From the sequence record NC_025447.1: a stretch of 64,000 nt of DNA; one strand, given 5' to 3'. This stretch comes from Escherichia phage 121Q. The notes under the pieces were generated by a model. It saw only the letters and a program-made list of their open reading frames with translations, did not search any database and was not told the origin of the DNA. A program made the position numbers and the translations under genes. This document shows, in pieces, positions 37,693 through 58,095 of this stretch (its first letter is position 1; every line of letters begins with the position of its first letter).

Positions 37693-37704
37693 TGGGGTCA
37701 TATA

Positions 37705-42217: not shown

Positions 42218-42256
42218 TTTATTAATTAGAGTGACGTGAATCACATAGGAGAATAC

Positions 42257-44545
42257 ATGAATCTTACTCAATTGTTCAAAAAAAGCGACGAACTGGCAAC
42301 ATCTCTAGGTCATACATTCTTGACTATTGACCACGTAAGTGCCACAGTACTGACTATTGATAGCATCAAGAACGTATTTGAAGATATGAACATTGATGCA
42401 GACAAACTGCACAACCGCCTGATGAACTATCTTAAAAATACAACAGTTCCACATGCACCAAAAAGTGTTAAAGATGAAGACGCGAATCGAACTTCACTTC
42501 TAGTGAATCGCGTTGTACATGAGCTTTCTAAAAAATCAGTCATTGAACAACTAAAAAGTGATGATTTTTCGATTGATGCATATTTTGTTCTATTCGAATG
42601 TCTGTCTTTCCCTAACACAGCACTAGAAGCTGCGTTAAAAGAAGAAGGTGTTAGCTGTACTGAAGCTGCACGTGCATTACAGAAACACGTTGAGTCACTT
42701 GATAAGGGTATCAACTTACAAAGTATTAATGACGAACCGATTGGAGATAAAAAAGTGGCCCAACAGCAGCAATCATCTAAACAAAAAGGTTTGGAAGACT
42801 ATACAACGAATCTAACTGCTCTTGCAAAAGAAGGCAAACTAGATCCTATGATTGGTCGCCAGAAAGAATTGTCTGCATTGATTGAGACTCTTGCTCGCAA
42901 AACCAAAAAGAATGCTATTCTCACTGGTGAAGCTGGTGTAGGTAAAACACAAATCATCGACGGGCTTGCACAAGCTATTGCTGATGGTAACGTACCTGAA
43001 CACCTGAAAGACGTTGAAATTCTTTCACTAAATGTTGGTGCATTGACTGCTGGTACTAAGTATCGTGGTGAATTTGAAGAACGCATCGACAATTTGCTAA
43101 AAGAACTAAAGAAACGTGAAAATACTATTGTTTTCATTGATGAAATTCATATTATGGTTGGGGCTGGTTCCGCAAGTAATGGTTCTATGGACATGAGCAA
43201 TATGCTTAAGCCAGCACTTTCACGTGGTGAGATTCGTGTAATTGGTGCAACAACATATGATGAATATCGTAAAAATATCGAGAAAGATAGTGCATTAACT
43301 CGTCGTTTTATGAAAATTGACGTAGTTGAGCCGACAATTGATGAAACTCGTGCAATTGTTAATGGTTTGAAACCAACGTATGAAAAATTCCATAATGTTG
43401 AGTTCACATCTGATGCAATGGATGCTGTAATTTCTCTCAGTGATAAATTCCTGAAGAATAAGCACTTCCCAGATAAAGCAATTGATCTAATGGATGCTGC
43501 TGCGGCTAAAGTTCGTTCACGTGACAACAATAGTAAGCTAATTACTGCCAATTTGATTCAAGAAGTTGTTGCTGGTATTGCCAATTTGGATATCAACGTG
43601 GTTGCATGTACTGAAAGTGATCGTATGCGTAATCTACCAGATGCACTACGCTCACGTGTATACGGTCAAGAGGAAGCTATTCAAAAATTAGTTGATAACG
43701 TGATGGTAGCTCGTGCAGGACTGCGTGACAAATCTAGTGTTCAGGGTGCATTTATGTTTGTTGGACCATCTGGTACTGGTAAAACAGAAATTACCAAAGC
43801 ATTAGCAGACGCAACTGGTGCGGAACTCATTCGCTTTGATATGTCAGAATTTTCTCAAGAACATACTGTTTCTAAACTAATTGGTTCACCTCCAGGTTAT
43901 GTTGGTCATGATTCTGGTAACGGTTTACTGTTGGATAAAATTGAGCAGTTCCCTAATGCAGTACTGTTACTTGATGAAATTGAAAAAGCAGATCGTAAAG
44001 TACTACTAACCTTCCTACAGGTTTTGGATGAAGGTCGTCTGACTGGTTCTCAAGGTAAAACTGTATATTTTAATAACGTAACTGTTATTATGACTACAAA
44101 CCTTGGTGCGGCTGATTCAACAAAGCGTAGCATTGGTATGAGCGGTAGTGACACTGCACAGGACAAGGCAATTAAAGCATTCTTGCCACCAGAGTTTATT
44201 AACCGTATTGATAGTATCGTTACGTTTAAAGACCTAAGCAGTGAAGCTATTGACAGCATCATTGATAAGTTCATGGGTGGTTTGAATGAACAAGTCAAAG
44301 ACCGTAATGTTAAAGTTACATTAACAAAAGCTGCACGTGAATGGCTTGCGAAAAATGGGGTAAAAGTTGGTATGGGTGCACGTCCAATGAAACGTACCAT
44401 TGAACAAAACATTCGTGTGCCACTAGCTAAAGAAATGTTGTGTGGTTCACTTGTGAATGGTGGTAACATTACATTTGATGTTATTGATGGTAAAATCGGT
44501 ATTAAGCCGAAACGTACCAAAGCTGTAGATAAAGCACTAGTATAA
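42257..44545 (+). CDS. ClpA-like AAA+ unfoldase (Clp N-domain plus D1 and D2 ATPase modules, no ClpB middle domain)
   Basis: ORF track 42236-44545, ATG 42257 preferred (AGGAG RBS); D1 Walker A GEAGVGKT and Walker B FIDEIH; D2 GPSGTGKT and LLLDEIEKA; D2 loop [10 protein letters not shown] at the position of the ClpA IGL ClpP-docking loop. Confidence 0.85.
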
Positions 44546-44549
44546 AAAA

Positions 44550-44584
44550 AGAAAAGGAGAGCATAATGCTCTCCTTTTTTTATT
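44550..44584. terminator. bidirectional terminator between ClpA-like gene and giant ORF
   Basis: AAAAGGAGAGCAT-aa-TGCTCTCCTTTTTTTT. Confidence 0.7.
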
Positions 44585-47500
44585 ACTTAACTAATAATAT
44601 ATTTTTAATATCATTACCACTAACTTGTAGACTATCAGTGTATACTGAAAGATCTATAGTGTAACTATTTTGTGTGTAACGTTTTAACATATCATAATTA
44701 CCTAAATTAATTCCATTGAAAGAATATGTAGTATTAAGTTTAAAATCATGTTCTGCACTATACATTACACCACGGAGTAAATTATTTGCATTTCTAACTT
44801 CAACTTTTTCATATCCAATCGATATAATATCATTCATGTTTGCGGCTGAACCGGATAAAACATTATTTCTAATACTATAAGGACTTATTGATTTAGGTTG
44901 AGAAACATAGGTTGTATTTTCTTCACTAATGGTTGTGATGTTAGTAACAGTACCACCAACAACACCGATATACATACCGTCAACCATTGGGAATCCATAA
45001 ACCCATATCCCTTCATTATTTCTAAACGGTTGAATAACACTTGAATCATATTCGATAACGTTGATTTCTAAACTATCAGTCATTTTAGTTCTTGCCAATT
45101 CACTAAGAACTCCCGCACCCGTAATTGGTAAGTTATAACCGTTATCGATAGTAATTCCATCAACATCAAATATTTCATTAGAGATTATCCAAACGTCAAC
45201 GTCATCTGGTGTTATTCCGTCATTGTACTTACCACCATTTAAAGTAGTATCGTAGAAAACATCATAATTAATTACATCAATGGTGTAATTTCTATTTTGT
45301 TCATACAATTTAATACCATTCTTGACAAATTCAGGGTCAGCAAATGTTCTAACACGAACAATGTTCAATGCTAGAGGCTGTACTGGCTCATTTTGTTGTG
45401 CAAGAGTGATGTTATCATAACGGAGAACTGCACCAGTACTCTCATCAATCAATTCAATCGTTTCCTTACCTGTATTTCTTACAGTGAATAGGATCGGAGT
45501 TGTATTGTTTTTGATGTTAGATACACGCAAGATTGTTTCCCATGTGTGATTTTGATATCTCACAAAATCTTCACCATCAGGAGTGAAAATCATCACCTTA
45601 TCACCATCAGATAGGTCATTGTCAACTATTTCTGCTTCAGTTAAGCTATTAATAGATCTCACACGATAGAAATATTTTTCATCAAACTTCGATGTTGTTT
45701 TATTAATATCATTTTCAATCTTAGCATATGAAGGAATACTTACAATTGCTTCTGTATGTTTATATGGATTGATAATTGCCATACCTTCAGTTTGATATCT
45801 GCTGTTATCACGTAATTGTACAAGAGATACATTGTCAAACCCATATCCATCAACTGTAAATCTAATTTGACCTACATCACGCCCAGAAGGGTTTATGTCA
45901 GATATATCCACAATATAAGGATCAACTTCATCATCTTTAACTTCCCATTTTATTGAAGAAGTTTGAGATTCCAATGCTAGGTTATCAAATGCATTCATAT
46001 CATTGAAGTACTTAGCTTCAGTAATACTATCAAGTATATATTGATAATCAGAATACATTGGATTATTTTGATCTAGTGGTAAATCATCAAGATTTATTTC
46101 AGCTAGTTCAACCATTTCACCATTTGTGATAAAATAATCTTCCATGAAATCATCAATACTTTGTTCATCAGGTATACTTTGATATACACCGTTAACATTT
46201 AAGTAAACATATTTTCGTGGAATCATTGTAATTGCATAGATATCAATTGGGGTCTTACTAAGAATCTCTTCAGCTTTTTCGTACTTATCAGTAGCGTCTT
46301 TGTCGAATAACCCTCTCATACCTGCTAATACGTGAATAGCATCAGTATAGAAACGGGTATCACCACCTACTTCATCATAACGATAAACATATACACCATA
46401 CTCAACTTCAAGTTTAACTTTTACTTCATAGTCTGATGCGTCAGGATTTTTATCTTTAATTAATGAAATGTATTTTTGATACAATTCACTGCTTATTTCA
46501 AAATATCCATAGTTATAATCATTACTAGAAGAAAAGCCTAATGGAAGTCTAGTACTAGGATTGTCATTATAAGTAAGTCCACTAAATCCACATCCAACTT
46601 CATCGTGAATTTTCTCATCACTTATATCTTTATAAAGTTTCAAACGGTTTGCCAATGTGTTATACTGAACATATTGTCTAAGGTCAGTAAACATATCGTT
46701 ATGCGTTGATTCTTTATAAACACGTTCCAATGTAGCAGTGAATTCATCAGTTGCTTCTAAATCTTCCGCATGGTCTTTATACCACTGGTTAACGCCATAT
46801 GCTGTTCCTAGTGTTACATCCAATTCTGGATAGTAGATTTGCATTTGATAAGCAATAAGAAGATCGAAAGTTTCTTCACTATATTCTGGGAAAGAATATA
46901 TATAACGTTGTAATTCATAGTTACTAACAGCATCCTTTTCATTGGATTGATATTTGTTATTAACACTTACTAATTCATTTATGCTTGCCAAATCTTCATT
47001 TGGTTTACACTGAATATTATCATAATGCATAATAATATCAATTTCTTGGAATCTTCTATTTGGTGTAACGAAATCACTTGGTAGTGAACCTACCTGTTCC
47101 CATTTTTGGGTAATTTCATTAAATTGAGCGTACTCATAATCCCAAATATCTTTTTCAGTTTTGATCCAAGAACCGTCAACGAAAATATATCCATTAGGAT
47201 CTAAATCATTACATAGACCTTTTATTAAATCATCATCAGATGTCTTTTGCTCTATTTGTGAACGAATTTTAGTTCTATAAGGTTTAACTTCTTCAAAATA
47301 TTCAACAATTTGATTAATCAAATTATCGTTTGAATAGTTTTGAACTAATGATTGTTCCAAACCAACAATATAGATATATGATGTTTTAAATACCCAATCC
47401 ACAACACTTTGTTCAACATGTACATATTTGACCATATCAAAAACAATTTCGCTTTGATGTAAATCGAAAGAATTTTTGAGTAAAGCTAGTGCTTTACGAA

Positions 47501-50500
47501 CGTTGATTTCACGATTGCTTAGTGATCCATTATCATTATGAACACTATAATCTGCGTAAAGCATATCATTGAGTTCAACTGTACTGTTTTCACGACCAAT
47601 CGCTTTCCAATAAATTGAATCGCGTGATTGTGATTTAATATACAATGTCCAAATGTTTTCACTATCGGTAACTCTGATAATATCGCCAACTTGGTAGTTT
47701 TTAGTATTAGCATCTTCTAAGCTTGACTCTTGTGTATAAGTCGTGTTACTATCATACCCAACATCATACCAATCAGCATATGACCAGTACTGAGTCATGT
47801 CCAATGAAGTTCCCAGTGATTCAACATAATCAGATTGTTTAATCATTTTATGTTGACCCTCACCTTTGTTCTCTAACGTTATAGTAACAACACTACCCGC
47901 GTTTGCTGGACTATTCATTAACTGAATATATCCATTTTCGTCGAAGTGAATAAAATAAACAGCACTAGAAGTTAATGGATTTGGTAGATATCCACTAGTA
48001 CTTAAAATAACAGCGTCATTTTCTTTAAATTTATCACTTTCAACTGCAATAACTAATTCATTATTGTAAGACAATACACGGAAAGAAACTTCATTCGGAT
48101 TAACTTCAGTGGTTTTAACATTAAACACATCTTCCATAACAACACTATTAGTGGTTATGTTTTGTGACCTATAATAATTATTAGCACTTTCTACAAAGTT
48201 TCTACGAGCTTCTATAACATTTTGGAACCAAGTTTTGTTTGAACCTAAACCGTTATCAACATCTGGATATAATAAATTAATCACAGAACCTGATTCAGTT
48301 GTTTCTTGACCAATTAGTGAGTTCCACATTGAATCCCAAATTAGTGGGTTAAAGTTATAGCTGTCACCTTCTTTACATAGTTGATACTGGTCATGTTTAA
48401 CAACTTCAGTACTATCCATGTAATAAGAAACAGTTAAAATACTGGTATCATCATTCACTTTAAATTGCATATTACTAAGAATAAACGAGTTTTCATTGAT
48501 TGGAGCGAACCAAGGAATGTTTAGCTGTGTTGGATCTTTAATAATACGAGCAATGTCAGTACATGATTTTGTTCTGGTATGTAGTGGTGGTACATAAATT
48601 GTATCACGTACCCAGAAATAGTATTTTGTCACATAACTATCAGTTGAACTATCATATTCCAAAAATGTACTATAATTATCTTCAAGTGCAGTTCCACTTG
48701 GTAGATACATAGTATTATTTTTGTTTTTCTTAGCAACATCTTTACAGTATTTGTCCCAGTTATATGGCTCAACTGGTGAACAAACCCACTCTAACACATC
48801 AATTGTACTATGTGGTAATAAACGACCCCAGTTGTAACGTTTGTATTCATTGGTTGCATCAATATCAACATTACCGTCTGCGTCATAAATTGCACGAGTA
48901 TAATCCAAATAAAATGCAGTGCTAGTGTTCCACCATACTTGACCAACTTTATCAGCACCCCAAGCCTGGATTAACTCTCCATTACTATTATACTGTGCAG
49001 GATCAACTGGTGAAGTATATGTTACGTTTTGCATAGCCGCACCTGGAATAACACCATTAATTGGGTCATAAACGTTTAGATATAGCTCAGTAATGTTAGT
49101 ACGTTCATCATATGTCGTTGGACGATCAAATAAAGTACTTTGTGGTGCTTTAAAACTATATTTCTTGTCAATGTAAGCTTGACGTTCATCAGTACTGGCA
49201 AAACGTGATACATAACGATACAAACGTGGACGTGTATCTGGATCAGTAAATTCAATATCAATAGAAGTGTCAAATGGAACTACCATAACTTTAGGATCAG
49301 AACCAGCAGTATAATATTGACTTTCTACTGTTAAAGTATCTGGCATAAAGTTAGTTTCATCAACAAAATAATAATAATCACCATCTTCAAGTGGTACATT
49401 ATCAGTTAAAGTTACTTTACAAAATTGTTCAGCATACACATCGGTATTTTCAATAGGTGTTATAGAAACCATTTGCACATTAGTATCAACCAATTCAAAA
49501 ATGTTCCACAAACCATTACCGTCTTTAAACATCCACACAGATTCAGGATTTTCACCTTTACCATTAGTATAAGTTATGCGGTCATTATATGCAGTACTGA
49601 AATCTTTTGTTGTGTACGATACTTCATCCAATGTTACTGGACCAATATCTGGAAGTTGGATGTTTTCACTTCTTCCACTACGCATTGGGAATGAGAACTT
49701 ACCATTTGGACGTGTAATCCAACGAGGATCTTTACCCTGCTCACCGAAGTATACAATATGATTACCATTACCATTTGAAGTTGCATTTACATCAAAAGAA
49801 ACCATTTGAGGTTGTTGTTTAAATTGGTCATTGATTAGTTTAAATTGAAGGTTTTTCTTACCATCAATATTACCATATGTACCAATTTTAAATGCCCATT
49901 CTTGTAATGCTTTATATTCATCAGTGTCATATGATTTAGAAACACGAAGTACACGTTCTAAAACTTGGTTAGTACCTTTATCGTGAATGAATCCTTTATA
50001 GAAATCAACACGACTAACATCACTGCTAATCATACGCTGTAGATAATCACGAGATTGATAACCAATCAAATGGTTTGACAACTCTTGTAATTGTACATCA
50101 CTTACTGGAGTTTCACTATCATAATAATGTTGGAAATCCGACACTAATTTTTCAAATGATGGTAGTGTTCCAGCTTCCAAGATAATAAATCCAGGAGCTT
50201 GTAGGCGACCAGTCCATGAACCAGTAATATATCCATACATTTTAATTAGTTCTTGAATAGAACCATATGTTGGCTGATAAATGTAATCACCAAAAATAGT
50301 TTTATCATCAAAAATAACAGCATGTTCATATGAACACAAACTTAAACGAATCAATGCAATGCGTTTATTAGATTCTAAAGTTCTAACAGTGAAGATATTT
50401 CCAATACGAGAAGTTTCAATTTCATATTGGCGAATACCTTGGTTATTATCATCAAGTAATGACCATACACCACCATTATTTTGCGTAATAGATTGTACTG

Positions 50501-53500
50501 AACCAAAGTCTGCCCCAAATTTAGCGTTTGCAGCACTTGGGGTACAAGAAATAAATTCACCAGTTACTAGAGAATTCTGACTCCAGATCACGAAATCTTT
50601 AGCAATAGTGTTCCAATCTTGTTGAGCACCACTATCATTTACATCTTCAAAAATCCAACCATGTTCTTTAAGATATTCACCATATCCACAAATAAAAGTA
50701 TAAACTTCTTGGTAACTATTGAAAACTTTACCATATTCAATTGAAGCTTCAGACTTCCATTCATTATAATGAACAACATTACGGTTTTCCAATTTAAGAG
50801 TTACTTTTCTACCATTTTTTACGGGAAGTTTATATTTAAATTTAGCACCAACTAGATCATATCCATCAATCTGATATGCACTACCATTCCAAGTAATTTT
50901 GATCGCACTCATTTGCTCATCACGGATATTATTAGAACGAACAAGACCAATGGTTTGGTTTTCTTGTGAAATAAGACCGAAAGATTTAGCATTGAATGTT
51001 AGCTGATCTGCTTTAGTAAATCCTCCAATTTTATGACCAACATTTATATAAGAAGAACGAACTACATCCCCATACTTGGTGGTAATATTTTTATTTTGAT
51101 ACATCAAATGGTCACTTACAAACATTTGATAACCAATTGTTCTTGTGCTATTTTCACCATGAACTACTGTATTTTTATCAAAATTAATACGCTTACGTGT
51201 ATCACCATAAAGGAATTGTGAACCATCAGTGAATACTTCTTTTAAGTTATCATTGCGGGTATCCCAGAAATAGTTAGCAAATTGTGCTGGTTTAGCTTTA
51301 TACAAAAGCATCATTTGGTCATATGCAAACAATGTAGTGTTCATGTATGTAAATTCCATGTCACCCATATCACCATATGTCCAAGGTTCTGCTCTATGAT
51401 TTAAAGATCCAGACACTAAACCTAAAATTTCAGGTGCAATATATTCAACCACACAAATATCAATACCAGAAGATGTTTTATTTCCAGTTTTTGTAATTTT
51501 GAATGGCTGTACACCAAATCTTTTATATTTGTCATATTGACCACGACGATCACCAAATAAAATAGTTCCAGTACTGCTATCGCCAATAGTTCCGTCAATA
51601 TCCCAAAGACCACTAGGAACTAAATCACCTTGCTCATTCATAACAAGTGCTTCATATACATATACAACATCACTATCACGTTCACCAACTTGAACAGCCG
51701 TTGGTTCGTATTCTTGGTTCCACCAAGTTGGACGTTGTGTAAAGCCAAACATTTCCCACGGATGGGTAGCTGGGCGATATGTACCATATTGGTCAGTGTA
51801 AATGGCACGCCATGAACCACGTGCAGGAATTTCAGTACTTTGACCATTAACTACATAATAAGTGCCAGTATAGTTCCAAGTTCTCCAATTGTTAGGATCA
51901 TAATCATGTGTACTATTACTGATACCATTAGTTGCGGTGAAGTTAATGTATCCACGTAGTAATAATGTTTGTTTCTCTTCAGCACTATATTCAGTTTTAG
52001 TGAAATATGGTGTAGGGAAAAGGTCATCACTATTCAATACTGGTACGTAATCAACATCTTTGAATTTATTATCAATACTATTAAAAATTCTATTTTCTAA
52101 TTCATATACAACATCATCCATTTTATCAACACCATTGATAACACGGTATGCTTTGGAAATAATACCAGTATGACTGATGTTATAACAGCTTGGTTTACTA
52201 CCAGCAGTGAGGAATGTCGCTTTTTCTGGTACATATGCTTGAAGAATACCTAAGAACTGTGGTGTTGGTGGTATAAATGCACGAATGAATCCAGAAGTAC
52301 TTCCAACATTATCATAATAGAATGGGAATGAACTATCACGTCCCATATTAATAGTAGTTAAAATTGCATCAACAATGTTTGCAGCACTATTTTGTAAAAA
52401 GTCTGATGGATTTTCATCATACATACGAAGCATTTGTGTATTAAATTTATTAATGAATCTAAAATATTCAGATTGCATAAACATAGTTGCTTCAAATAAA
52501 TCAATATCTTCATTTGCAGTATGTGCCATCAATGGAAGCATAGATGCTTCATTTTGGATAATTTTAGTACCTACGCCATTATTAACCAATCCTTTAGCCA
52601 AACGTTCTTCATAGTCATTGAAATCATCAGAAGAACCACGTGTAATGTTCTTTTGAATAATATCCTGAAAATGTAAAGTGTAGTCACCTTGGTTAATGTA
52701 TATAATATTGGAATTGTATGGGTTATTTTGTAAGTTAATTGGAACTTCATATGCACCTAATTCTTTATTAGGAGTTACAGTACTGCTATAAGTTCTAATT
52801 TGAATAACTGAATCTTCATCCAAATCTACAGTGCTATCTAAGGTGATACTTTGAACTTGACCTTTTGATACATTTTTGGTATATTTTGATACATCAACAC
52901 CATCAACAACAACTTCAATTATGTCAGAATCATTATCTAAAACTTTTTGTGCTAATTCGAATGTGTGGTCATATTTTACAATCTGAACACCATCACCAGT
53001 GATTGGATGCCAGTCTAGATAAGTTTCGCGGTCTGCTTTATAGTACTGATAGGTTCTATCAACTTCAATAACATATGCATACATACCATCAACTGGTTCT
53101 TTAAAAACTTCCATATCATAAACAGTACTGAATACACGATACATATCAGTACGTTTGACTTGTGGAGTTTGTTTTACAAATTGTTTAGAGTACTCTTCTG
53201 AACGAACCCAATCGGTTTGAAGATTCATTTCATTATTTTCATCAATAATGTTATAATAGTATAAACCATCAATTTCAACTTCTTTTCCAAGATGGTCATA
53301 GGTATAACGTTGGGATTGTAAAAAGTTTTCATAAATGTAATAATTATAATCACCAAGTTCAATGTTATATCCATATACACTATCAGTTGCATAGTTGTAA
53401 TTTATTTTAAAACCAAACAACTCTGAACCTTTAAAGTTACTGGATGGATATGTAGTACTGTTGTCAAGTTTGATACCATTACGATCATAAAGTTGGAATT

Positions 53501-54554
53501 TAGGGAATATGTTAACACTAGTTTTTGATTGTGCACGAACCCACAAAGAACCATTCCAGTACATAGAACTGTTACCATACTCATTACCTTTGGTGATTAG
53601 AACAACATCACCATCTTGAGGTTCACCACTTGGGCGTGATTCGGTTTCTTCTTCTGGATCTAATGCCAAACCATAAACACGAGTACCATCCTGCATTTTT
53701 TTGACATATACATTATAAATTCTATTATTTTCACCATTGTTACCAATACTGGTGAATAGAATACGCATACCATCTTGTGGAATAATACCATCAATACGGA
53801 TGCCACTATTAATATCTTTTTGTACGATATCTTCAGGTTTGATTATATCTGAGAATAGATCGACAGTTCCACGGAATTTTGTACCGTAGTTAATTAGTTC
53901 AATATTTTTATTATATTCGATAATTGGAGCACGGGCACGAATAAAGCGAGAATCTTGCATTAATTCTTCAGTTAAAATTGAACCATCTTCTAAAGTTTCA
54001 CCTAAAGTATACCAAAAGTTTTGTAGTGACCATGTATTACCATTAAGTGCACCACGTTCCATTACAATGTAATCAGGTGAAGTAATATTATAAGAGTTTT
54101 TAGTATCCCAAAGATATGAGCTAAAATTGTTCATTTTATTTGGGTTAATAGCTGGAGTCCATGCATAAAACTTACCGTTGAACAAACGGCTTTCATTATC
54201 GGTTAGTGCTCCATAATGATTCATGTATCCAACTAGATCATCATAAAATTGAATTGAACGAATTGTCGAATCATCATTTTTTGAGACGTAAGCAGTGGAC
54301 AACTGATAAAGTTGACGTGCTACAGTACTTTCATGTAAGAAGATATTACCAGCAGCGGCAGGAGAACCCATATCACCAATATAGCCGTCAACTAATTCGT
54401 TTTCAGCCGGATTAAACCATTGTTGAATAACATCATCACTGACTTTTTGAATATCTTCTAAGCCTTGCATCCACTCAGGCAATCTTTTAATAAAAAGCTT
54501 CTTCTGTACTGCTTCAGCCATCTGTGTAGGTTGAAACTTAAAATTATTAGTCAT
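44583..54554 (-). CDS. giant virion structural protein (about 3320 aa), baseplate/fibre module
   Basis: Single uninterrupted frame (ORF track start 54584); second ATG at 54554 has GGAG 7 nt upstream and lies downstream of a late-promoter-like box; no domain assigned. Confidence 0.55.
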   Translation of the reverse strand: MTNNFKFQPTQMAEAVQKKLFIKRLPEWMQGLEDIQKVSDDVIQQWFNPAENELVDGYIGDMGSPAAAGNIFLHESTVARQLYQLSTAYVSKNDDSTIRSIQFYDDLVGYMNHYGALTDNESRLFNGKFYAWTPAINPNKMNNFSSYLWDTKNSYNITSPDYIVMERGALNGNTWSLQNFWYTLGETLEDGSILTEELMQDSRFIRARAPIIEYNKNIELINYGTKFRGTVDLFSDIIKPEDIVQKDINSGIRIDGIIPQDGMRILFTSIGNNGENNRIYNVYVKKMQDGTRVYGLALDPEEETESRPSGEPQDGDVVLITKGNEYGNSSMYWNGSLWVRAQSKTSVNIFPKFQLYDRNGIKLDNSTTYPSSNFKGSELFGFKINYNYATDSVYGYNIELGDYNYYIYENFLQSQRYTYDHLGKEVEIDGLYYYNIIDENNEMNLQTDWVRSEEYSKQFVKQTPQVKRTDMYRVFSTVYDMEVFKEPVDGMYAYVIEVDRTYQYYKADRETYLDWHPITGDGVQIVKYDHTFELAQKVLDNDSDIIEVVVDGVDVSKYTKNVSKGQVQSITLDSTVDLDEDSVIQIRTYSSTVTPNKELGAYEVPINLQNNPYNSNIIYINQGDYTLHFQDIIQKNITRGSSDDFNDYEERLAKGLVNNGVGTKIIQNEASMLPLMAHTANEDIDLFEATMFMQSEYFRFINKFNTQMLRMYDENPSDFLQNSAANIVDAILTTINMGRDSSFPFYYDNVGSTSGFIRAFIPPTPQFLGILQAYVPEKATFLTAGSKPSCYNISHTGIISKAYRVINGVDKMDDVVYELENRIFNSIDNKFKDVDYVPVLNSDDLFPTPYFTKTEYSAEEKQTLLLRGYINFTATNGISNSTHDYDPNNWRTWNYTGTYYVVNGQSTEIPARGSWRAIYTDQYGTYRPATHPWEMFGFTQRPTWWNQEYEPTAVQVGERDSDVVYVYEALVMNEQGDLVPSGLWDIDGTIGDSSTGTILFGDRRGQYDKYKRFGVQPFKITKTGNKTSSGIDICVVEYIAPEILGLVSGSLNHRAEPWTYGDMGDMEFTYMNTTLFAYDQMMLLYKAKPAQFANYFWDTRNDNLKEVFTDGSQFLYGDTRKRINFDKNTVVHGENSTRTIGYQMFVSDHLMYQNKNITTKYGDVVRSSYINVGHKIGGFTKADQLTFNAKSFGLISQENQTIGLVRSNNIRDEQMSAIKITWNGSAYQIDGYDLVGAKFKYKLPVKNGRKVTLKLENRNVVHYNEWKSEASIEYGKVFNSYQEVYTFICGYGEYLKEHGWIFEDVNDSGAQQDWNTIAKDFVIWSQNSLVTGEFISCTPSAANAKFGADFGSVQSITQNNGGVWSLLDDNNQGIRQYEIETSRIGNIFTVRTLESNKRIALIRLSLCSYEHAVIFDDKTIFGDYIYQPTYGSIQELIKMYGYITGSWTGRLQAPGFIILEAGTLPSFEKLVSDFQHYYDSETPVSDVQLQELSNHLIGYQSRDYLQRMISSDVSRVDFYKGFIHDKGTNQVLERVLRVSKSYDTDEYKALQEWAFKIGTYGNIDGKKNLQFKLINDQFKQQPQMVSFDVNATSNGNGNHIVYFGEQGKDPRWITRPNGKFSFPMRSGRSENIQLPDIGPVTLDEVSYTTKDFSTAYNDRITYTNGKGENPESVWMFKDGNGLWNIFELVDTNVQMVSITPIENTDVYAEQFCKVTLTDNVPLEDGDYYYFVDETNFMPDTLTVESQYYTAGSDPKVMVVPFDTSIDIEFTDPDTRPRLYRYVSRFASTDERQAYIDKKYSFKAPQSTLFDRPTTYDERTNITELYLNVYDPINGVIPGAAMQNVTYTSPVDPAQYNSNGELIQAWGADKVGQVWWNTSTAFYLDYTRAIYDADGNVDIDATNEYKRYNWGRLLPHSTIDVLEWVCSPVEPYNWDKYCKDVAKKNKNNTMYLPSGTALEDNYSTFLEYDSSTDSYVTKYYFWVRDTIYVPPLHTRTKSCTDIARIIKDPTQLNIPWFAPINENSFILSNMQFKVNDDTSILTVSYYMDSTEVVKHDQYQLCKEGDSYNFNPLIWDSMWNSLIGQETTESGSVINLLYPDVDNGLGSNKTWFQNVIEARRNFVESANNYYRSQNITTNSVVMEDVFNVKTTEVNPNEVSFRVLSYNNELVIAVESDKFKENDAVILSTSGYLPNPLTSSAVYFIHFDENGYIQLMNSPANAGSVVTITLENKGEGQHKMIKQSDYVESLGTSLDMTQYWSYADWYDVGYDSNTTYTQESSLEDANTKNYQVGDIIRVTDSENIWTLYIKSQSRDSIYWKAIGRENSTVELNDMLYADYSVHNDNGSLSNREINVRKALALLKNSFDLHQSEIVFDMVKYVHVEQSVVDWVFKTSYIYIVGLEQSLVQNYSNDNLINQIVEYFEEVKPYRTKIRSQIEQKTSDDDLIKGLCNDLDPNGYIFVDGSWIKTEKDIWDYEYAQFNEITQKWEQVGSLPSDFVTPNRRFQEIDIIMHYDNIQCKPNEDLASINELVSVNNKYQSNEKDAVSNYELQRYIYSFPEYSEETFDLLIAYQMQIYYPELDVTLGTAYGVNQWYKDHAEDLEATDEFTATLERVYKESTHNDMFTDLRQYVQYNTLANRLKLYKDISDEKIHDEVGCGFSGLTYNDNPSTRLPLGFSSSNDYNYGYFEISSELYQKYISLIKDKNPDASDYEVKVKLEVEYGVYVYRYDEVGGDTRFYTDAIHVLAGMRGLFDKDATDKYEKAEEILSKTPIDIYAITMIPRKYVYLNVNGVYQSIPDEQSIDDFMEDYFITNGEMVELAEINLDDLPLDQNNPMYSDYQYILDSITEAKYFNDMNAFDNLALESQTSSIKWEVKDDEVDPYIVDISDINPSGRDVGQIRFTVDGYGFDNVSLVQLRDNSRYQTEGMAIINPYKHTEAIVSIPSYAKIENDINKTTSKFDEKYFYRVRSINSLTEAEIVDNDLSDGDKVMIFTPDGEDFVRYQNHTWETILRVSNIKNNTTPILFTVRNTGKETIELIDESTGAVLRYDNITLAQQNEPVQPLALNIVRVRTFADPEFVKNGIKLYEQNRNYTIDVINYDVFYDTTLNGGKYNDGITPDDVDVWIISNEIFDVDGITIDNGYNLPITGAGVLSELARTKMTDSLEINVIEYDSSVIQPFRNNEGIWVYGFPMVDGMYIGVVGGTVTNITTISEENTTYVSQPKSISPYSIRNNVLSGSAANMNDIISIGYEKVEVRNANNLLRGVMYSAEHDFKLNTTYSFNGINLGNYDMLKRYTQNSYTIDLSVYTDSLQVSGNDIKNILLVK

Positions 54555-54590
54555 TTTTGGACTCCATATAATTCGTTCATTCATTTGATT

Positions 54591-54598
54591 TATTTATG
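54591..54598 (-). promoter_or_regulatory. late-promoter-like box CATAAATA upstream of giant ORF
   Basis: 7/8 match to TATAAATA, downstream of a minus-strand terminator. Confidence 0.25.
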
Positions 54599-54599
54599 A

Positions 54600-54628
54600 T
54601 ATAAAAAAGGCGTTCCGAAGAACGCCCG
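54600..54628 (-). terminator. minus-strand terminator/attenuator between baseplate genes
   Basis: GGCGTTC-cgaa-GAACGCC with U-tract on minus strand. Confidence 0.5.
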
Positions 54629-54633
54629 TTATA

Positions 54634-57600
54634 TTAAGAACCGATATTAATATTACTTTTAGCTAGTGAGTTAACAATTTGAACATTTTCAACAGATGCA
54701 GTACTCAAAAATATTTGGTCTGAACGTGAAGGGATTTCAAATAGAGAACCAAATTTTGAATTTGGATTTTGTGCAACTATAACAATAGTACTAATATGTC
54801 TACCTAACTGTGAGTGTATGTAAGTACACAAATCAGTATAATAGAAACTTTCACCGAAATCCCAGTTATCAACATTGAAGTATTCATTAGTTAATGCTAT
54901 GACATTTTGACGAATTTCATCATCACTCATTGTGCTGTTTGGTAATTTCACTACTTTAAAATCAGCTTTGTAATCTTCAGCAGCACTGTTTCCAAATAAA
55001 GGTAAGTACTCAGCACTATGCCAAATGATACTATCACTAATGACTATTTTTTGTTCAACATCTTTGAACATATCTTTTAATTCAACCGATGTTGGTGGTT
55101 TAGGAATACTACCAACAGCATTATTTTTCAACCAAACGTCAACTTCAGTTTTATATGAATTGGTTAATACATACATATCAATTAAGTTTGTTCTACTAGG
55201 ATCAATGCGATTGTCGTCAGGTGCATAGTGTTTCCAATGGAAGTCTATACTAGTACGTGCATTAGTTTTAACAGTGTACTGTGAAGTAACATCTTTGTAT
55301 CCATAATAATCTAGCTTCTGATTCTCGTCAGCATTAGTTCCCATGTTATTAATTGCACGATAAAAAGCCAATTCAGGACTAACAGTGCCAGTATCATCGG
55401 AATAAGTTAAATTACTAATTAGTTGTCCCAAACGATCATTGTTATTGCCAACTGTTTGTTCAATAAAATAATATTTACCATCATAGTTAAAACCAACTAA
55501 AAATCCAGAACCTTTACTATATAATCCACTCAATGTGGTTGAACGAATTGCGTTATTTCTAACAAATTCAGTTCTTTTATATGCATTCGGCTCTGCCAAA
55601 GCTTGTTCCATTGTATAAGACCACGATGAATCAAGAAGTGTGAAGGTATCATTTGGTAACGACAGTACTGATATAGTGAAATCACTATTTTCCTGAAATA
55701 CCAAAATACCACCATATTTTAATGCATCGGTTCCAGTCCAAGTAGGAACAATTTCTTTAAATTGGTTTGGTTCCAATGGTATACCATTACTATCTACTTT
55801 CCTAGATGTAACAATAACACGAGAACCATCTAGATAGCCATTCTCTTGTTGAATTGTGTCATAAATTTGAAAATCTATATTACTTGTCAATCCTGAATTA
55901 CTACTACTAGTAGTGTTAGATGATAAAATTTCAATCTTATCACTTTGAACTGTACCAGTACTTATATCAGTAATTTTTTTAGATGATACAAAGTAAAATC
56001 TTACTTTTTCTCCACCCACAAAAATATATTCAATACCGTTAGCATCAAATTCCCAAGTTTCTGCTGTATATTTTACATTTATTATAATTAAAACTTCATT
56101 ACCATTATACACAATAGTATCGTCATTAGTACTTGCTTCGATTGGAACCCATGAAGTTGTTTCTTTATCATGTACAATTACAAAATCGGTTTTTTTATCC
56201 AACATAGCAGAAATAGACTGAACTTCAACTGTGTTAAATCTAGTTCTATATGGTAATATGTACTCTATTGCTTGCATTCCACTAGGAACAGATGTGCTTA
56301 GTACATAAAAACCATTATCTAACACACTTACAACACTTGCCCATATCGTAGTACCAGAATTAGAAAATTTAATAAGAGTACCTACCTGATACGAACCATA
56401 CACTGTTCCAGACGAACCCAAAATTCTGCCATATGTATTGGTTGTGTAATTTGAATTGTACACTGGAGTCCATGCTTGTTGTATTTCAATACCAATTGTA
56501 TTGGATGGATACGCTTGGTAACGTTGTATTACTGCATTTTCCCCAATCAATGGTTGAATATTGTCAATAACAATACTAGCATTTGTTTTTGTAGTTGGGA
56601 GCAATAACGATCTATTAAATTGCGTGTTTTCTTGATATAATGCACCATCATCACTAAAAACGTCGGTATTCTGATACTTACCAGTAGGATCATTGATATC
56701 AATGAACCTTGATTGACCACTATAAATTCTATTAATAGCTTTAGATTTAAGTACTGTATTTCCTAAACTAAGTGGTGCTATATTATAATCTTCACCATTG
56801 ACAAAACGGTTTTGGGTATAGTACATTTGTGGTGCACGTGCTTTAATCTGCTCAATAGTTTCAGCACTTTGTGCACGGTCGGATTCATATTGTAATGAAA
56901 AACGTATATCCAATGTACTAGATTCATAACTTGACTGTGTTTTTGTACGATATGTATATTTTACGCTTTTGTTTTGAATTTCAGAAGTTTTAATGTTATA
57001 TGTTTTACCATTACTAACACGATACCATACACGGAACGTCCCACGGGGAACAACACCACTTCTTGAGTCTGGGTACTTAATTGTTATTTGGTCTTTATCA
57101 CGAGTAGTAACAGCAAAAATTGTTTTTAATTGACGATTAACAGTGTTATATGCAATACTTTCCATTGATGGAACTTTTGTCCATTTGGTACGAACAATAC
57201 CATCTTCATTTATTTCTTGAACCCATACATCAGTTTCGTTGATATTATCAACGTTAATATCTTGTATACGGTTCTCTTCACGGATAGCATATTGATAATC
57301 TTGATATGTTAATGTACCTTGTACGAAATATACAAAAAACCCAGTATTTGGTGAGCTAAATCCATTACCATCATTTTGATAAACAATATATTTTTGCTCT
57401 TGTGGTTCTGGATGTCGTTCTTCAACACCAACAGACGTAATATCAGGATTCACTACTTCAAATGTCATAGATTCACCATTGACAGTTGCAATAAATGGAA
57501 TACTGGGTGCTGTCATTGGGATGGTGTTCATTCGATATAGTTGACGGGAGACACCATTAACATCAATACGCTTGACTGGATTACCAAATTGGTTAGTACT

Positions 57601-58095
57601 GACAAATGAACTGTTCATTACTAGAATAAAGTTTTCATACCAGTTAGCATCCATCGGGTCATTCCAACGAATAATTTTATCTTTTAATGATTCATTAAAA
57701 CTATTACGAACATCTTGGTTTGTTTTAATTTCGGTTAATTTAGCAACTGCACGACCTGGATATGAGCGGCGTGGTGAGTAAGAAATCATTTTAGCTAGTT
57801 TTAGTACTGACGCACGACGAGTTGCAGTATCTAAAAAGTTTTCACGCGTGTTCAAATCCATACGAAATGCCAAGTTTTGTCCTAGCATAGAAATCGTATC
57901 TAAAATAAAAATAAACTGGTCGTTTTCGATCCAGTCGTTAAATGAATCTGGGTAAGTTGCACGTAGATAATCAATCATACTCTGACGGATAGTGTCGAAG
58001 TCATAAGCTGTTAGATTGATTTTATAAAAACTTTCATATACTTGAGTCCAATCCTCACCACTATATAAATTAGACTGTCTTTTTTGTTGTGACAT
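54634..58095 (-). CDS. baseplate wedge protein, J-like (T4 gp6 / P2 gpJ analog) with large extension
   Basis: Position downstream of gp25-like gene in the conserved W-J order; N-terminal region loosely resembles the Baseplate_J pattern; 1153 aa. Confidence 0.45.
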   Translation of the reverse strand: MSQQKRQSNLYSGEDWTQVYESFYKINLTAYDFDTIRQSMIDYLRATYPDSFNDWIENDQFIFILDTISMLGQNLAFRMDLNTRENFLDTATRRASVLKLAKMISYSPRRSYPGRAVAKLTEIKTNQDVRNSFNESLKDKIIRWNDPMDANWYENFILVMNSSFVSTNQFGNPVKRIDVNGVSRQLYRMNTIPMTAPSIPFIATVNGESMTFEVVNPDITSVGVEERHPEPQEQKYIVYQNDGNGFSSPNTGFFVYFVQGTLTYQDYQYAIREENRIQDINVDNINETDVWVQEINEDGIVRTKWTKVPSMESIAYNTVNRQLKTIFAVTTRDKDQITIKYPDSRSGVVPRGTFRVWYRVSNGKTYNIKTSEIQNKSVKYTYRTKTQSSYESSTLDIRFSLQYESDRAQSAETIEQIKARAPQMYYTQNRFVNGEDYNIAPLSLGNTVLKSKAINRIYSGQSRFIDINDPTGKYQNTDVFSDDGALYQENTQFNRSLLLPTTKTNASIVIDNIQPLIGENAVIQRYQAYPSNTIGIEIQQAWTPVYNSNYTTNTYGRILGSSGTVYGSYQVGTLIKFSNSGTTIWASVVSVLDNGFYVLSTSVPSGMQAIEYILPYRTRFNTVEVQSISAMLDKKTDFVIVHDKETTSWVPIEASTNDDTIVYNGNEVLIIINVKYTAETWEFDANGIEYIFVGGEKVRFYFVSSKKITDISTGTVQSDKIEILSSNTTSSSNSGLTSNIDFQIYDTIQQENGYLDGSRVIVTSRKVDSNGIPLEPNQFKEIVPTWTGTDALKYGGILVFQENSDFTISVLSLPNDTFTLLDSSWSYTMEQALAEPNAYKRTEFVRNNAIRSTTLSGLYSKGSGFLVGFNYDGKYYFIEQTVGNNNDRLGQLISNLTYSDDTGTVSPELAFYRAINNMGTNADENQKLDYYGYKDVTSQYTVKTNARTSIDFHWKHYAPDDNRIDPSRTNLIDMYVLTNSYKTEVDVWLKNNAVGSIPKPPTSVELKDMFKDVEQKIVISDSIIWHSAEYLPLFGNSAAEDYKADFKVVKLPNSTMSDDEIRQNVIALTNEYFNVDNWDFGESFYYTDLCTYIHSQLGRHISTIVIVAQNPNSKFGSLFEIPSRSDQIFLSTASVENVQIVNSLAKSNINIGS

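What the first reader, a model, noticed from the sequence alone, without database searches (positions are those of the whole stretch)
44583..54584. A 10-kb single ORF (about 3320-3333 aa) in the baseplate module
One uninterrupted minus-strand frame spans 10 kb after the J-like baseplate gene, where a gp7 or gpI-type wedge protein or fibre is expected, but it is three times larger than any T4 baseplate protein and I recognise no motif in it. It may be a fusion of wedge, fibre and additional domains, or a giant injected protein. The start is ambiguous (ATG 54584 versus ATG 54554 with a GGAG RBS).
Basis: seen in the sequence. Interest (0 to 1): 0.5.

Follow-up and report, generated by a model that had tools for sequence, protein, structure and literature searches.

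The report
Giant baseplate protein of jumbo phage
The 10-kb frame is one real gene for a 382-kDa particle protein of PBECO4/121Q-type giant E. coli phages; it sits where phage T4 keeps its baseplate-wedge scaffold gene 7, resembles no protein of known structure, and is already catalogued but has never been given a function.

Summary
There is one uninterrupted minus-strand ORF at 44583..54584. The true start is ATG 54554, giving 3,323 aa, 381.9 kDa and pI 4.6. The window is an Asteriusvirus (PBECO4/121Q/phAPEC6-like jumbo myovirus). The gene is 99% identical to phAPEC6 gp245, which mass spectrometry found in virions, and it matches PHROG 10938 over its full length.

It belongs to a large family: 1,304 clusters at 50% identity, and full-length members are nearly all 2,700-6,300 aa. 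dN/dS is 0.06-0.09. In six divergent lineages the gene directly follows the gp25-like and gp6-like wedge genes, which is the slot of T4 gene 7. In PA5oct a gp10-like gene follows it.

One relative splits the gene exactly at residue 2364/2365, so the last ~960 aa form a separable module.

Best reading (0.55): a one-chain-per-wedge peripheral baseplate scaffold and fibre-docking platform, analogous to gp7 but not detectably homologous to it. The gene is already catalogued; the role is unassigned. Interest is moderate.

The parts
44583..54554 (-). Coding sequence of the giant virion protein: 3,323 aa plus TAA stop at 44583..44585; 381.9 kDa; pI 4.58; no transmembrane segment.
54582..54584 (-). 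It is not the start. It lies at or next to the likely 5' end of the late transcript and is out of frame in UE-S1.
54562..54565 (-). GGAG ribosome-binding site, 7 nt before ATG 54554. Invariant in the four Asteriusvirus sequences aligned.
54591..54598 (-). CATAAATA, a 7-of-8 match to the T4-type late promoter TATAAATA. ATAAATA is invariant in an intergenic region that is much better conserved than synonymous sites of the gene. Promoter function is inferred, not shown.
   Evidence: consensus from established T4 knowledge
54602..54627 (-). Intrinsic-terminator-like hairpin (GGGCGTTCTTCGGAACGCC plus a T run) after the gp6-like gene. The giant gene therefore probably has its own late transcript.
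44546..44578 (.). Terminator-like 12-bp hairpin, flanked by T runs on both strands, between the giant gene and the convergent ClpB-like gene.
54180..54554 (-). Residues 1-125: conserved across the whole family, helical, but modelled with low confidence (pLDDT 28-63). An insertion hot spot at residues ~150-160 follows it. Candidate partner-dependent interface.
53145..54167 (-). Residues 130-470: confidently modelled beta-rich domains (pLDDT ~79-95).
51405..53144 (-). Residues 471-1050: a variable beta-sandwich (about 480-600), a helical region (about 620-880, with helices 686-714 and 858-876), and a mixed alpha/beta domain (890-1050).
50325..50927 (-). Residues 1210-1410: confident beta domain. 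Several distant homologues carry an inserted ~40-60-residue W/Y-rich segment here; its identity as a CBM5/12 module is my reading of the sequence pattern (Pfam reports PF02839 in these proteins but gives no position).
49905..50321 (-). Residues 1412-1550: among the most conserved blocks of the family (EHA..FDN.TIFGD..Y...WNGRL.APGF...FYKG.I..KGT). Helical, yet pLDDT is only 27-47 in the monomer model. Best candidate for the contact with the gp6-like dimer (inferred).
48405..49877 (-). Residues 1560-2050: mostly confident beta/alpha domains. They contain the main insertion hot spot (1651-1800, window 49155..49604), where relatives insert up to >1,500 aa.
47463..48404 (-). Residues 2051-2364: the end of the N-terminal module. 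2051-2250 is modelled with mixed confidence; 2251-2364 was not modelled.
44586..47462 (-). Residues 2365-3323: the separable C-terminal module. It opens with the family-wide motif DWVFKTSYIYI...EVKPYRTKIR (to about residue 2450). The rest is clade-specific and evolves faster (49% vs 70-77% identity to RaK2-type). It is a separate gene in the P0072 lineage and is missing from the P0087 and P0088 proteins. Not modelled.
54634..58095 (-). Upstream neighbour and presumed partner: an enlarged gp6/J-like wedge protein (1,153 aa). Only its N-terminal ~100 aa match the general gp6 PHROG. Homologues elsewhere carry Pfam DUF8360.
58934..59329 (-). gp25/W-like inner wedge protein (131 aa).
37084..38805 (+). 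A 202-aa protein (37084..37692) and a 366-aa virion protein (37705..38805). Their homologues directly follow the giant gene in PA5oct and in metagenomic locus L006. The 366-aa protein shares a ~70-aa N-terminal domain with the PA5oct gp10-like protein and several fibre-like proteins. Candidate clients of the platform (inferred).

Best explanation
The ORF is a single real late gene for the conserved giant virion protein of Rak2-like/Asteriusvirus jumbo myoviruses. It most likely forms the peripheral part of each baseplate wedge, the structural role that gp7 (with gp8 and gp9) plays in T4.

Proposed mechanism:
1. One 382-kDa chain per wedge, six per virion.
2. It binds the inner wedge (two copies of the enlarged gp6-like protein plus the gp25-like protein) through conserved helical segments that fold only with a partner: residues 1-125 and/or 1412-1550.
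3. The rest of the chain spreads out as two dozen or so beta-sandwich and beta-barrel domains. These make up the outer baseplate.
4. Those domains serve as docking sites for the separately encoded fibre and spike proteins.
5. The last ~960 aa are an independently folding add-on module.

Shown here: one gene under purifying selection; family membership; conserved position after the gp25-like and gp6-like genes; modular anatomy; lack of detectable homology to gp7. From the literature: presence in the virion. Inferred: location at the wedge periphery, copy number, the contact with the gp6-like protein, and the fibre-docking role.
For: Real gene and family:
- Intact ORF with P(chance) ~1e-106.
- dN/dS 0.058 and 0.085, below 0.13 in all 13 sub-regions.
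- 99.2% nucleotide identity to phAPEC6, SP27 and G17 (99.1% to PBECO4).
- PHROG 10938 matched end to end at E=0.
- 1,304 clusters at 50% identity match the conserved block, and full-length members are almost all 2,700-6,281 aa.

Virion component:
- phAPEC6 gp245 (381.88 kDa): 17 unique peptides (PMC7247149).
- CBB_236: 21 peptides (PMC5259590).
- The PA5oct homologue is flagged ESI-MS/MS in its record.

Position in the genome:
- The order gp5-like, gp25-like, gp6-like, giant is seen in the window and in phAPEC6.
- The gp25-like, gp6-like, giant adjacency (with a gp5-like hub gene also nearby in PA5oct and L006) is seen in XacN1, in metagenomic loci L004/L005 and L006, and in PA5oct. In Atu_ph07 the two upstream genes match only by size and order; they are annotated 'hypothetical protein'.
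- T4 has 5, 5.4, 6, 7, 8, 9, 10.
- In PA5oct the giant is followed by a 201-aa protein and then a protein with a true Gp10_C domain (PF21939, E=1e-23). The giant therefore lies between gp6-like and gp10-like genes, as gene 7 does.
- In two further lineages it lies in a tail/baseplate gene block: next to a baseplate-hub gene in both, and after a tail-sheath gene in L011.
- The Rak2-like phages have no reported homologue of T4 gp7, gp8, gp9, gp10 or gp11 (T4-core table in PMC5259590).

Architecture:
- AlphaFold models of residues 1-1050 (pLDDT 79.5) and 1051-2250 (pLDDT 68.6) show many globular beta-rich domains, no fibre-like repeats and no coiled coil.
- Two of the best-conserved stretches are helical but poorly modelled as a monomer, as expected for hetero-oligomer interfaces.
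- Distant relatives carry CBM5/12, FG-GAP, LamG-type and TIG domains, the extra length lying at the family's insertion hot spots, which fits a surface-exposed scaffold.
- Separate fibre and spike genes exist in the window.
Against: - No homology to T4 gp7 was found by any method: Pfam gp7 domains absent (compare); profile against the PDB empty; hhalign family against family, probability 0.8%.
- The assignment therefore rests on gene order, virion proteomics and general architecture, not on homology or a map.
- The proposed contact with the gp6-like protein was never tested; no complex was modelled.
- Residues 2251-3323 were not modelled at all.
- In two lineages (L011, L012) no gp6-like gene is adjacent.
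- The low-resolution phAPEC6 tail map (25 A) assigns nothing to this protein.
- Peptide counts do not fix the copy number.
Confidence: 0.55

Rival explanations
1. It is itself a fibre or adhesin: an oligomeric (for example trimeric) or beads-on-a-string side fibre attached to the baseplate, which binds host surface glycans directly.
For: - Distant homologues carry CBM5/12, FG-GAP, LamG-type and TIG domains.
- The C-terminal third evolves about twice as fast as the core.
- CBB and phAPEC6 show short baseplate fibres by electron microscopy.
Against: - No internal repeats, no coiled coil, and no collar, beta-helix or intramolecular-chaperone Pfam domains.
- The modelled parts are globular multi-domain.
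- The whole length, including the C-terminus, stays alignable at 42-60% identity in phages of E. coli, Klebsiella, Pectobacterium and Salmonella. It is not swapped as host-range modules are.
- dN/dS in the C-terminus is still ~0.1.
- Dedicated fibre and spike genes are present.
Confidence: 0.17
2. It is a highly diverged true fusion of several T4-type wedge proteins (gp7 plus gp8, gp9 or gp10 equivalents) in one chain, that is, homologous and not merely analogous.
For: - It occupies the position of genes 7-9 between the gp6-like and gp10-like genes in PA5oct.
- T4 gp7 through gp12 total about 3,000 aa, summed from the CDS coordinates, which is a similar size.
- The gene is found split in two in one lineage.
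- T4 peripheral baseplate proteins are known to diverge beyond sequence recognition (PMC3004832).
Against: - Profile and profile-profile tests against gp7, gp8 and gp10 were negative, and BLASTP against the other T4 baseplate and neck proteins found nothing.
- T4 stoichiometries differ (gp7 x1, gp8 x2, gp9, gp10 and gp11 x3 per wedge), so a single chain cannot simply replace them.
- The one known split point does not correspond to any recognisable T4 gene boundary.
Confidence: 0.12
3. It is an ejected or internal protein, either in the tail lumen or head (in the manner of the N4 virion RNA polymerase) or a cell-envelope-spanning conduit. It would be encoded next to the baseplate genes only by linkage.
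For: - The size is similar to other giant injected phage proteins (from general knowledge).
- It is present in virions.
- It is acidic and low in cysteine.
Against: - No polymerase, enzyme or membrane-insertion signature; no hydrophobic segment, with the best 19-mer Kyte-Doolittle mean at 1.55 and containing charged residues.
- It is beta-sandwich-rich rather than helical or unfoldable.
- Relatives decorate it with carbohydrate-binding modules, which makes sense only on the outside of the particle.
- Linkage to the gp25-like and gp6-like genes is kept across very divergent phages.
Confidence: 0.06

Closest known systems
Orthologues in Rak2-like jumbo phages: phAPEC6 gp245, PBECO4, CBB_236, the RaK2 and GAP32 'virion structural protein', PA5oct EST35_0128 (PHROG 10938)
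   Same: The same gene. 99% identity to phAPEC6 and PBECO4 and 58-65% amino-acid identity (full length) to RaK2-, CBB- and GAP32-type proteins, the same length and the same neighbours. Detected in virions by mass spectrometry.
   Different: Nothing of substance. No published function: records say 'hypothetical' or 'virion structural protein'. One record calls it 'D-alanyl-D-alanine carboxypeptidase', for which I found no support.
T4 gp7, the baseplate wedge protein (1,032 aa; 6 copies; monomer)
   Same: The gene lies immediately after the gp6 homologue. It is a large multi-domain protein that is most likely monomeric. It is a virion protein. The expected role is to link the inner wedge to peripheral and fibre-attachment proteins.
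P2 gpI, Mu gp48 and T6SS TssG: the minimal third wedge component that pairs with two gpJ/TssF copies
   Same: The gene order W(gp25)-J(gp6)-I is the same as gp25-like, gp6-like, giant. Some component of this kind is expected in every contractile baseplate (general knowledge).
   Different: Those proteins are about 200-350 aa. No Pfam or profile signal for them is present in the giant. Whether residues 1-125 or 1412-1550 form the equivalent helical bundle is untested.
Large peripheral baseplate proteins of other big myoviruses: phiKZ PHIKZ087 and PHIKZ027, phage 812 DUF4815 arm protein, P1 BplA
   Different: The scores are near noise and rmsd is high. There is no sequence similarity. The giant is at least three times larger than any of them.
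T4 gp10-like docking domains in branched fibre systems (CBA120 TSP4 N-terminal region, G7C, phiKp24 gp306)
   Different: The match is a single-domain resemblance below significance (Foldseek E=0.08). I could not see which residues of the giant match. A profile comparison with T4 gp10 was negative.

Membership tests
Giant virion protein of Rak2-like jumbo phages (PHROG 10938) | Full-length match to the family profile | tested here: met
   E=0, 5,795 bits, residues 11-3330 against profile positions 1-3324 of 3324. 99.2% nucleotide identity to phAPEC6 over the whole gene.
Giant virion protein of Rak2-like jumbo phages (PHROG 10938) | Gene located directly after the gp25-like and gp6-like wedge genes | tested here: met
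   Seen in the window, phAPEC6, XacN1, L004/L005, L006 and PA5oct; in Atu_ph07 by gene size and order only.
Giant virion protein of Rak2-like jumbo phages (PHROG 10938) | Present in purified virions | not testable with these tools
   Literature only: phAPEC6 gp245, 17 peptides; CBB_236, 21 peptides; the PA5oct record is flagged ESI-MS/MS.
T4 gp7 baseplate wedge protein | Pfam gp7 domains PF21428, PF21456 and PF21427 | tested here: not met
   All 120 listed gp7 homologues carry them. The giant has no Pfam hit at E<=0.01, and 13 family members scanned show none of them.
T4 gp7 baseplate wedge protein | Profile or profile-profile sequence similarity to gp7 | tested here: not met
   hhalign of A1 (26 giants) against A8 (16 gp7 proteins): probability 0.8%. 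Against T4 gp7 alone: probability 0.1%. The family profile against PDB sequences, which should include the T4 baseplate chains, gave no relevant hit.
T4 gp7 baseplate wedge protein | Fold similarity to solved gp7 | tested here: not met
T4 gp7 baseplate wedge protein | Gene immediately downstream of gene 6 and upstream of genes 8-10 | tested here: met
   T4 gene order. The giant follows the gp6-like gene in all lineages listed above. In PA5oct a Gp10_C protein follows two genes later.
T4 gp7 baseplate wedge protein | One copy per wedge, bound to the gp6 dimer and carrying the peripheral proteins | not testable with these tools
   Needs cryo-EM, cross-linking or stoichiometry measurements. No complex prediction was available.
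P2 gpI / TssG minimal wedge component | Family Pfam domains or profile similarity | tested here: not met
   No Pfam hit of any kind. A structural equivalent of the core bundle could not be assessed, because the candidate segments were modelled at low confidence.
Tail fibre / tailspike receptor-binding proteins | Trimer-forming repeats, beta-helix, collar or chaperone domains | tested here: not met
   No Pfam hit. The self-comparison finds no repeats. The models are globular and multi-domain.
Tail fibre / tailspike receptor-binding proteins | Distal part exchanged or hypervariable between phages of different hosts | tested here: not met
   The C-terminal third is collinear and 42-60% identical in the closer relatives (P0004-P0030), falling to 27-44% in P0043-P0058, with 94-100% of positions aligned throughout. 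dN/dS is ~0.1.
Tape measure protein | Long, mostly helical chain | tested here: not met
   The models are beta-rich.
Giant ejected enzymes (N4 virion RNA polymerase type) | Polymerase or other catalytic motifs | tested here: not met
   No Pfam, PDB-sequence or fold match to any polymerase.

The most novel reading that the evidence does not exclude
A very large and environmentally widespread clade of jumbo myoviruses (at least 1,300 clusters at 50% identity) builds the whole outer baseplate from six copies of one 2,700-6,300-aa chain. This chain would have arisen independently of the T4 gp7-gp11 set. Its conserved helical block would supply the third strand of the otherwise universal (gp6)2-X wedge core, and lineage-specific insertions (CBM5/12, FG-GAP, LamG-type) together with a detachable C-terminal module would tune host contact. 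That would be a second, non-homologous solution to the baseplate periphery and the largest single baseplate subunit known.
Probability: 0.3. Interest if true: 0.6.

Novelty: new variant of a known kind. Interest (0 to 1): 0.42.

Why it matters
The gene itself is not new. It is annotated in about 90 cultured jumbo-phage genomes. One paper used the largest ORF of each Rak2-like genome, which I take to be this gene, as the anchor point for genome comparisons. It has also been seen in virions by mass spectrometry.

What remains open is what a 382-kDa chain does in a baseplate. No member has an assigned role or a solved structure. In my tests about 2,250 modelled residues have no significant relative in the PDB.

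If it is the wedge periphery, it would define how this whole jumbo-phage clade builds its adsorption organ and where its many fibres dock. The clade includes therapeutic candidates against E. coli, Klebsiella, Pseudomonas and Salmonella. The assignment would guide fitting of future cryo-EM maps and engineering of host range. It would also show that the outer baseplate can be reinvented while the gp25/gp6 core is kept.

Tried and rejected
Sequence searches with no signal:
- Pfam on the protein and on 13 family members found nothing, apart from CBM5/12 in two distant members and one weak E1_FCCH hit.
- phmmer and two family profiles against all PDB sequences gave only a spurious Rsp5 HECT hit (E=0.004, in a poorly conserved stretch) and ribosomal uL30 (E=1.6).
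- hhalign of the family against T4 gp7, gp8 and gp10 single sequences and against a 16-sequence gp7 profile gave probabilities of 0.8% or less.
- BLASTP of twelve T4 baseplate and neck proteins against the giant found nothing below E=0.1.
- A self-BLAST found no internal repeats.

Tool problems:
- The search for homologous proteins with the C-terminal 873 aa returned 'none' although P0001 contains that stretch at 99% identity. I treat this as a tool artefact, not biology.

A lead I dropped:
- I first took Pfam PF12322 ('T4_baseplate'), found in the gene after the giant in two marine-type contigs, to be gp8. A control scan showed that T4 gp8 is PF09215. The neighbour matches PHROG 150, 'baseplate hub'. 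The 'giant followed by gp8' idea was dropped.

Literature:
- Papers on phAPEC6, CBB, RaK2, Atu_ph07, Sharanji and phiKp24 give no functional statement about this protein and no resolved baseplate.
Full report
**1. The observation**

The ORF listing shows one minus-strand ORF at 44583..54584, 3,333 codons from the first ATG. Its translation has no internal stop. With the base composition of the window a random codon is a stop with p=0.071. An open frame of this length therefore has P about 1e-106 by chance.

The upstream neighbour (54634..58095, 1,153 aa) matches the PHROG families for 'baseplate wedge subunit', including the general gp6 family over its N-terminal ~100 residues. Further upstream lie an HNH endonuclease, a gp25-like protein, a 162-aa lysozyme and a gp5-like hub-lysozyme. 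The description 'after the J-like baseplate gene' is correct.

**2. Identity and start codon**

The whole gene is 99.2% identical in DNA to phAPEC6, SP27 and G17 (99.1% to PBECO4). It is full length in at least 33 phage records of Escherichia, Salmonella, Klebsiella, Erwinia and Serratia jumbo phages. The window is therefore an Asteriusvirus.

The protein matches PHROG 10938 ('virion structural protein') from end to end at E=0, and the profile begins at residue 11 of the long form. phAPEC6, UE-S1 and BF17 all annotate the start at MTNNFKF.

The upstream sequence reads, in order:
- the stop of the gp6-like gene;
- a terminator-like hairpin at 54627..54608 with a T run;
- CATAAATA at 54598..54591;
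- the first ATG at 54584;
- GGAG at 54565..54562;
- ATG at 54554.

In UE-S1 a 1-nt insertion between GGAG and the second ATG puts the first ATG out of frame, while everything else in this ~95-nt region is almost invariant. The start is therefore 54554. The product is 3,323 aa, 381.9 kDa and pI 4.58, with no hydrophobic segment. That mass is the one given for phAPEC6 gp245 (381.88 kDa).

The exact T4 late-promoter octamer TATAAATA occurs only once in the window, against 10.4 expected. The 7-of-8 match in front of this gene is plausibly a late promoter, but that is an inference.

All residue numbers below count from M at 54554.

**3. A real gene under selection, and a virion protein**

Codon alignments with UE-S1 and BF17 give dN/dS of 0.058 and 0.085. 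No sub-region exceeds 0.13, including the C-terminus.

Mass spectrometry found the orthologues in purified particles:
- phAPEC6 gp245: 17 unique peptides, 7.6% coverage (PMC7247149).
- CBB_236: 21 peptides (PMC5259590).
- The PA5oct homologue is flagged ESI-MS/MS in its record.

A few GenBank records split the region into 3-18 ORFs. Given the intact frame everywhere else, these are sequencing or annotation errors.

**4. The family**

A search of 5.8 billion proteins gave 190 relatives; the 120 listed are all 2,780-5,638 aa. A profile of the conserved block (residues 1205-1650) searched against 1.84 billion cluster representatives found 1,304 proteins at E<=1e-3 and 858 at E<=1e-30. Full-length members are almost all 2,700-6,281 aa, and the block always sits around position 1,150-1,650. 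Among cultured phages the family is confined to 91 records of Rak2-like, PA5oct-like, SCTP-2, Atu_ph07 and XacN1-type jumbo phages.

Mapping the relatives onto the query shows:
- a core at residues 1-2450 that is shared by most of the listed relatives (P0072, P0073, P0087 and P0088 end before about 2360, and several others only partly cover 2151-2450);
- variable stretches or insertion hot spots at ~150-160, 451-600, 951-1050, 1651-1800 (inserts of over 1,500 aa in some relatives) and 2151-2250;
- a clade-specific C-terminus (2451-3323) that evolves faster. Identity to RaK2-type proteins is 49% there against 70-77% in the core. It nevertheless stays collinear in phages of different host genera.

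Distant members carry CBM5/12, FG-GAP, LamG-type and TIG domains. The extra length of these proteins lies at the insertion hot spots.

**5. Gene order**

T4 has 53, 5, 5.1-5.4, 6, 7, 8, 9, 10, 11, 12. The gp25-like, gp6-like, giant adjacency (preceded by a gp5-like hub-lysozyme gene in the window, phAPEC6, PA5oct and L006) occurs in:
- the window and phAPEC6;
- XacN1, ORF323-325, with a giant of 3,313 aa;
- two metagenomic assemblies of the shortest member, P0072;
- the 4,988-aa member P0096;
- PA5oct;
- Atu_ph07, by gene size and order only, since both upstream genes are annotated 'hypothetical protein'.

In the metagenomic loci the gp6-like partner carries Pfam DUF8360.

In PA5oct the giant is followed by a 201-aa protein and then by a protein with a genuine Gp10_C domain (PF21939, E=1e-23). 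The giant therefore lies between gp6-like and gp10-like genes, exactly where T4 has genes 7-9.

Homologues of that 201-aa protein, and of the ~70-aa N-terminal domain shared by the gp10-like protein and several fibre-like proteins, are present in the window at 37084..37692 and 37705..38805. The ancestral neighbourhood has simply been rearranged here.

In two further lineages (P0087, P0088) the giant sits in a tail/baseplate gene block: next to a baseplate-hub gene in both, and after a tail-sheath gene in L011, without an adjacent gp6-like gene.

The CBB paper's table of T4-core homologues lists gp6 but no gp7, gp8, gp9, gp10 or gp11 for the Rak2-like phages.

**6. A split version**

In the P0072 lineage the large ORF ends with TGA, then a TAA four codons on. 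Next come GGAG and an ATG that opens a second gene in the same frame.

That second protein is at least 384 aa and is cut by the contig end. It aligns to query residues 2366-2439 at E=1.5e-12. The end of the first protein aligns to residues up to about 2364. The same arrangement occurs in two independent assemblies, one from ENA and one from JGI.

Chain continuity at 2364/2365 is therefore dispensable. The giant consists of an N-module (1-2364) and a C-module (2365-3323, window 44586..47462). The P0087 and P0088 proteins also stop before this point and lack the C-module. Most members are fused, so I consider fission in that lineage more likely than fusion in ours. Either way, this is the only sense in which 'fusion' is supported.

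**7. Tests for homology with known proteins**

All of the following were negative:
- Pfam: no hit. The 120 listed gp7 homologues all carry PF21428, PF21456 and PF21427.
- PDB sequences: nothing with the single sequence, the 13-member family profile or the conserved-block profile. The only hits were a spurious Rsp5 match and a ribosomal-protein match.
- hhalign of the family against T4 gp7, gp8 and gp10, and against a gp7 family profile: probabilities of 0.8% or less.
- BLASTP of twelve T4 baseplate and neck proteins: no hit below E=0.1.

**8. Structure**

AlphaFold2 was run with 24-row alignments.

Residues 1-1050 gave mean pLDDT 79.5:
- 1-120 are helical but low confidence;
- 130-470 are confident beta-rich domains;
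- about 480-600 is a variable sandwich;
- about 620-880 is helical;
- 890-1050 is mixed.

Residues 1051-2250 gave mean pLDDT 68.6:
- 1210-1410 and 1560-2050 are confident;
- 1051-1200 and 1412-1550 are helical at pLDDT 27-47.

The 1412-1550 stretch is among the most conserved in the family, and residues 101-150 are similarly conserved. High conservation with poor monomer confidence is what one expects of segments that fold against a partner. I take these as candidates for the contact with the gp6-like dimer. This is inference only.

Searches with the models:
- In the second model they were E1 FCCH-type barrels, tube or adaptor barrels, pilin domains and tailspike N-termini.
- T4 gp7 is not among the top 60 matches listed for either model.
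The best probability was 0.57, again for CBA120 TSP4.

T4gp10-like docking domains are reported in the branched fibre systems of CBA120 and G7C (PMC9700779); that they lie in the TSP4 N-terminal region is my recollection. The hit fits a docking-platform reading, but it is not significant.

**9. Interpretation**

Shown here:
- a single late gene under purifying selection;
- membership of a large family of giant proteins;
- conserved linkage to the gp25-like and gp6-like wedge genes, between gp6-like and gp10-like genes where the latter exists;
- a globular, beta-rich, multi-domain build with tolerated surface insertions;
- a detachable C-module;
- separate fibre and spike genes in the window;
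- no detectable homology to gp7 or to any solved protein.

From the literature: presence in virions.

From this I infer that the protein is the peripheral wedge scaffold of these phages. It would be a functional analogue of T4 gp7, which is monomeric, present in 6 copies, and serves as a platform for gp6, gp8, gp10 and gp9 (PMC3004832). Six 382-kDa chains would contribute about 2.3 MDa.

My confidence is 0.55, because the location, copy number and partners are untested. The rivals are a fibre or adhesin (0.17), a diverged true fusion of T4-type wedge proteins (0.12), an ejected or internal protein (0.06), and other or unknown for the remainder.

**10. Novelty and interest**

The ORF is already in the databases and has been seen by proteomics. 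The CBB paper set the largest ORF of each Rak2-like genome, which I take to be this gene, as the first gene for its genome comparisons. The finding as such is not new.

What is not in the literature I could search is any role or structure. The phiKp24 and phAPEC6 structural papers do not resolve the baseplate.

The combination is moderately interesting for phage structural biology:
- the gp7 slot;
- no gp7 homology;
- about 2,250 modelled residues with no PDB relative;
- a family of more than 1,300 clusters.

I rate it a new variant of a known kind (a baseplate wedge or peripheral protein), with interest 0.42.

Noticed in passing
window 58100..58864 (-): A 254-aa HNH/homing-type endonuclease (PHROG 559, E=1.6e-57; Pfam DUF723) lies between the gp25-like and gp6-like wedge genes. 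phAPEC6 has only a ~100-bp gap at this place, so this looks like a mobile insertion within the baseplate operon.
   Followed up: partly
window 59345..59833 (-) and 59870..62533 (-): The 162-aa ORF is a free-standing lysozyme that matches the C-terminal lysozyme part (profile positions 727-885) of the family of the adjacent gp5-like hub-lysozyme. It is a local paralogue. The only exact TATAAATA in the window (59857..59850) sits just upstream of it.
   Followed up: partly
window 42236..44545 (+): A ClpB/ClpA-like double-AAA+ ATPase (AAA_2 at E=2e-49, with ClpB_D2-small and Clp_N) converges on the giant gene and shares its terminator-like hairpin. The same adjacency is present in phAPEC6, UE-S1 and BF17 (by position and gene size only in BF17). 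A chaperone role for the 382-kDa protein is conceivable but untested.
   Followed up: partly
whole window: The T4-type late-promoter octamer TATAAATA occurs once, against 10.4 +/- 3.4 expected from shuffles. This strong depletion fits its use as a signal.
   Followed up: no
window 37084..37692 (+) and 37705..38805 (+): These two genes are homologues of the genes that directly follow the giant gene in PA5oct and in metagenomic locus L006. The N-terminal ~70 aa of the 366-aa protein recur at the N-termini of the PA5oct Gp10_C protein, a Collar-domain protein and three other fibre-like proteins. This looks like a shared attachment adaptor.
   Followed up: partly
L004 16300..16400 and L005 (P0072 lineage): The family member here is encoded as two consecutive in-frame genes, separated by TGA, TAA, GGAG and ATG. 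The break falls at the equivalent of query residue 2364/2365.
   Followed up: yes
distant homologues P0074, P0078, P0084, P0085, P0086, near query residue ~1245: An inserted ~40-60-aa W/Y-rich segment lies inside the confident beta domain 1210-1410. Pfam reports CBM5/12 in four of these five proteins (not P0078) without giving positions, so the identification of this insert is by sequence pattern only. Other members carry FG-GAP, LamG-type and TIG domains.
   Followed up: partly
GenBank records OR699181-OR699183, MH494197, NC_027399 (hits H14, H18, H19, H52, H59): The orthologous region is annotated as 3 to 18 separate 'hypothetical proteins', and in EJP2 as 'D-alanyl-D-alanine carboxypeptidase'. 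These are probably frameshift errors, overlapping spurious ORFs or misannotation.
   Followed up: no
(query window 44586..47204): The word-indexed protein search returned no hit for the C-terminal 873 aa although orthologues with 99% identity are in the same database. This is a tool artefact and should be kept in mind when reading negative results from that tool.
   Followed up: partly
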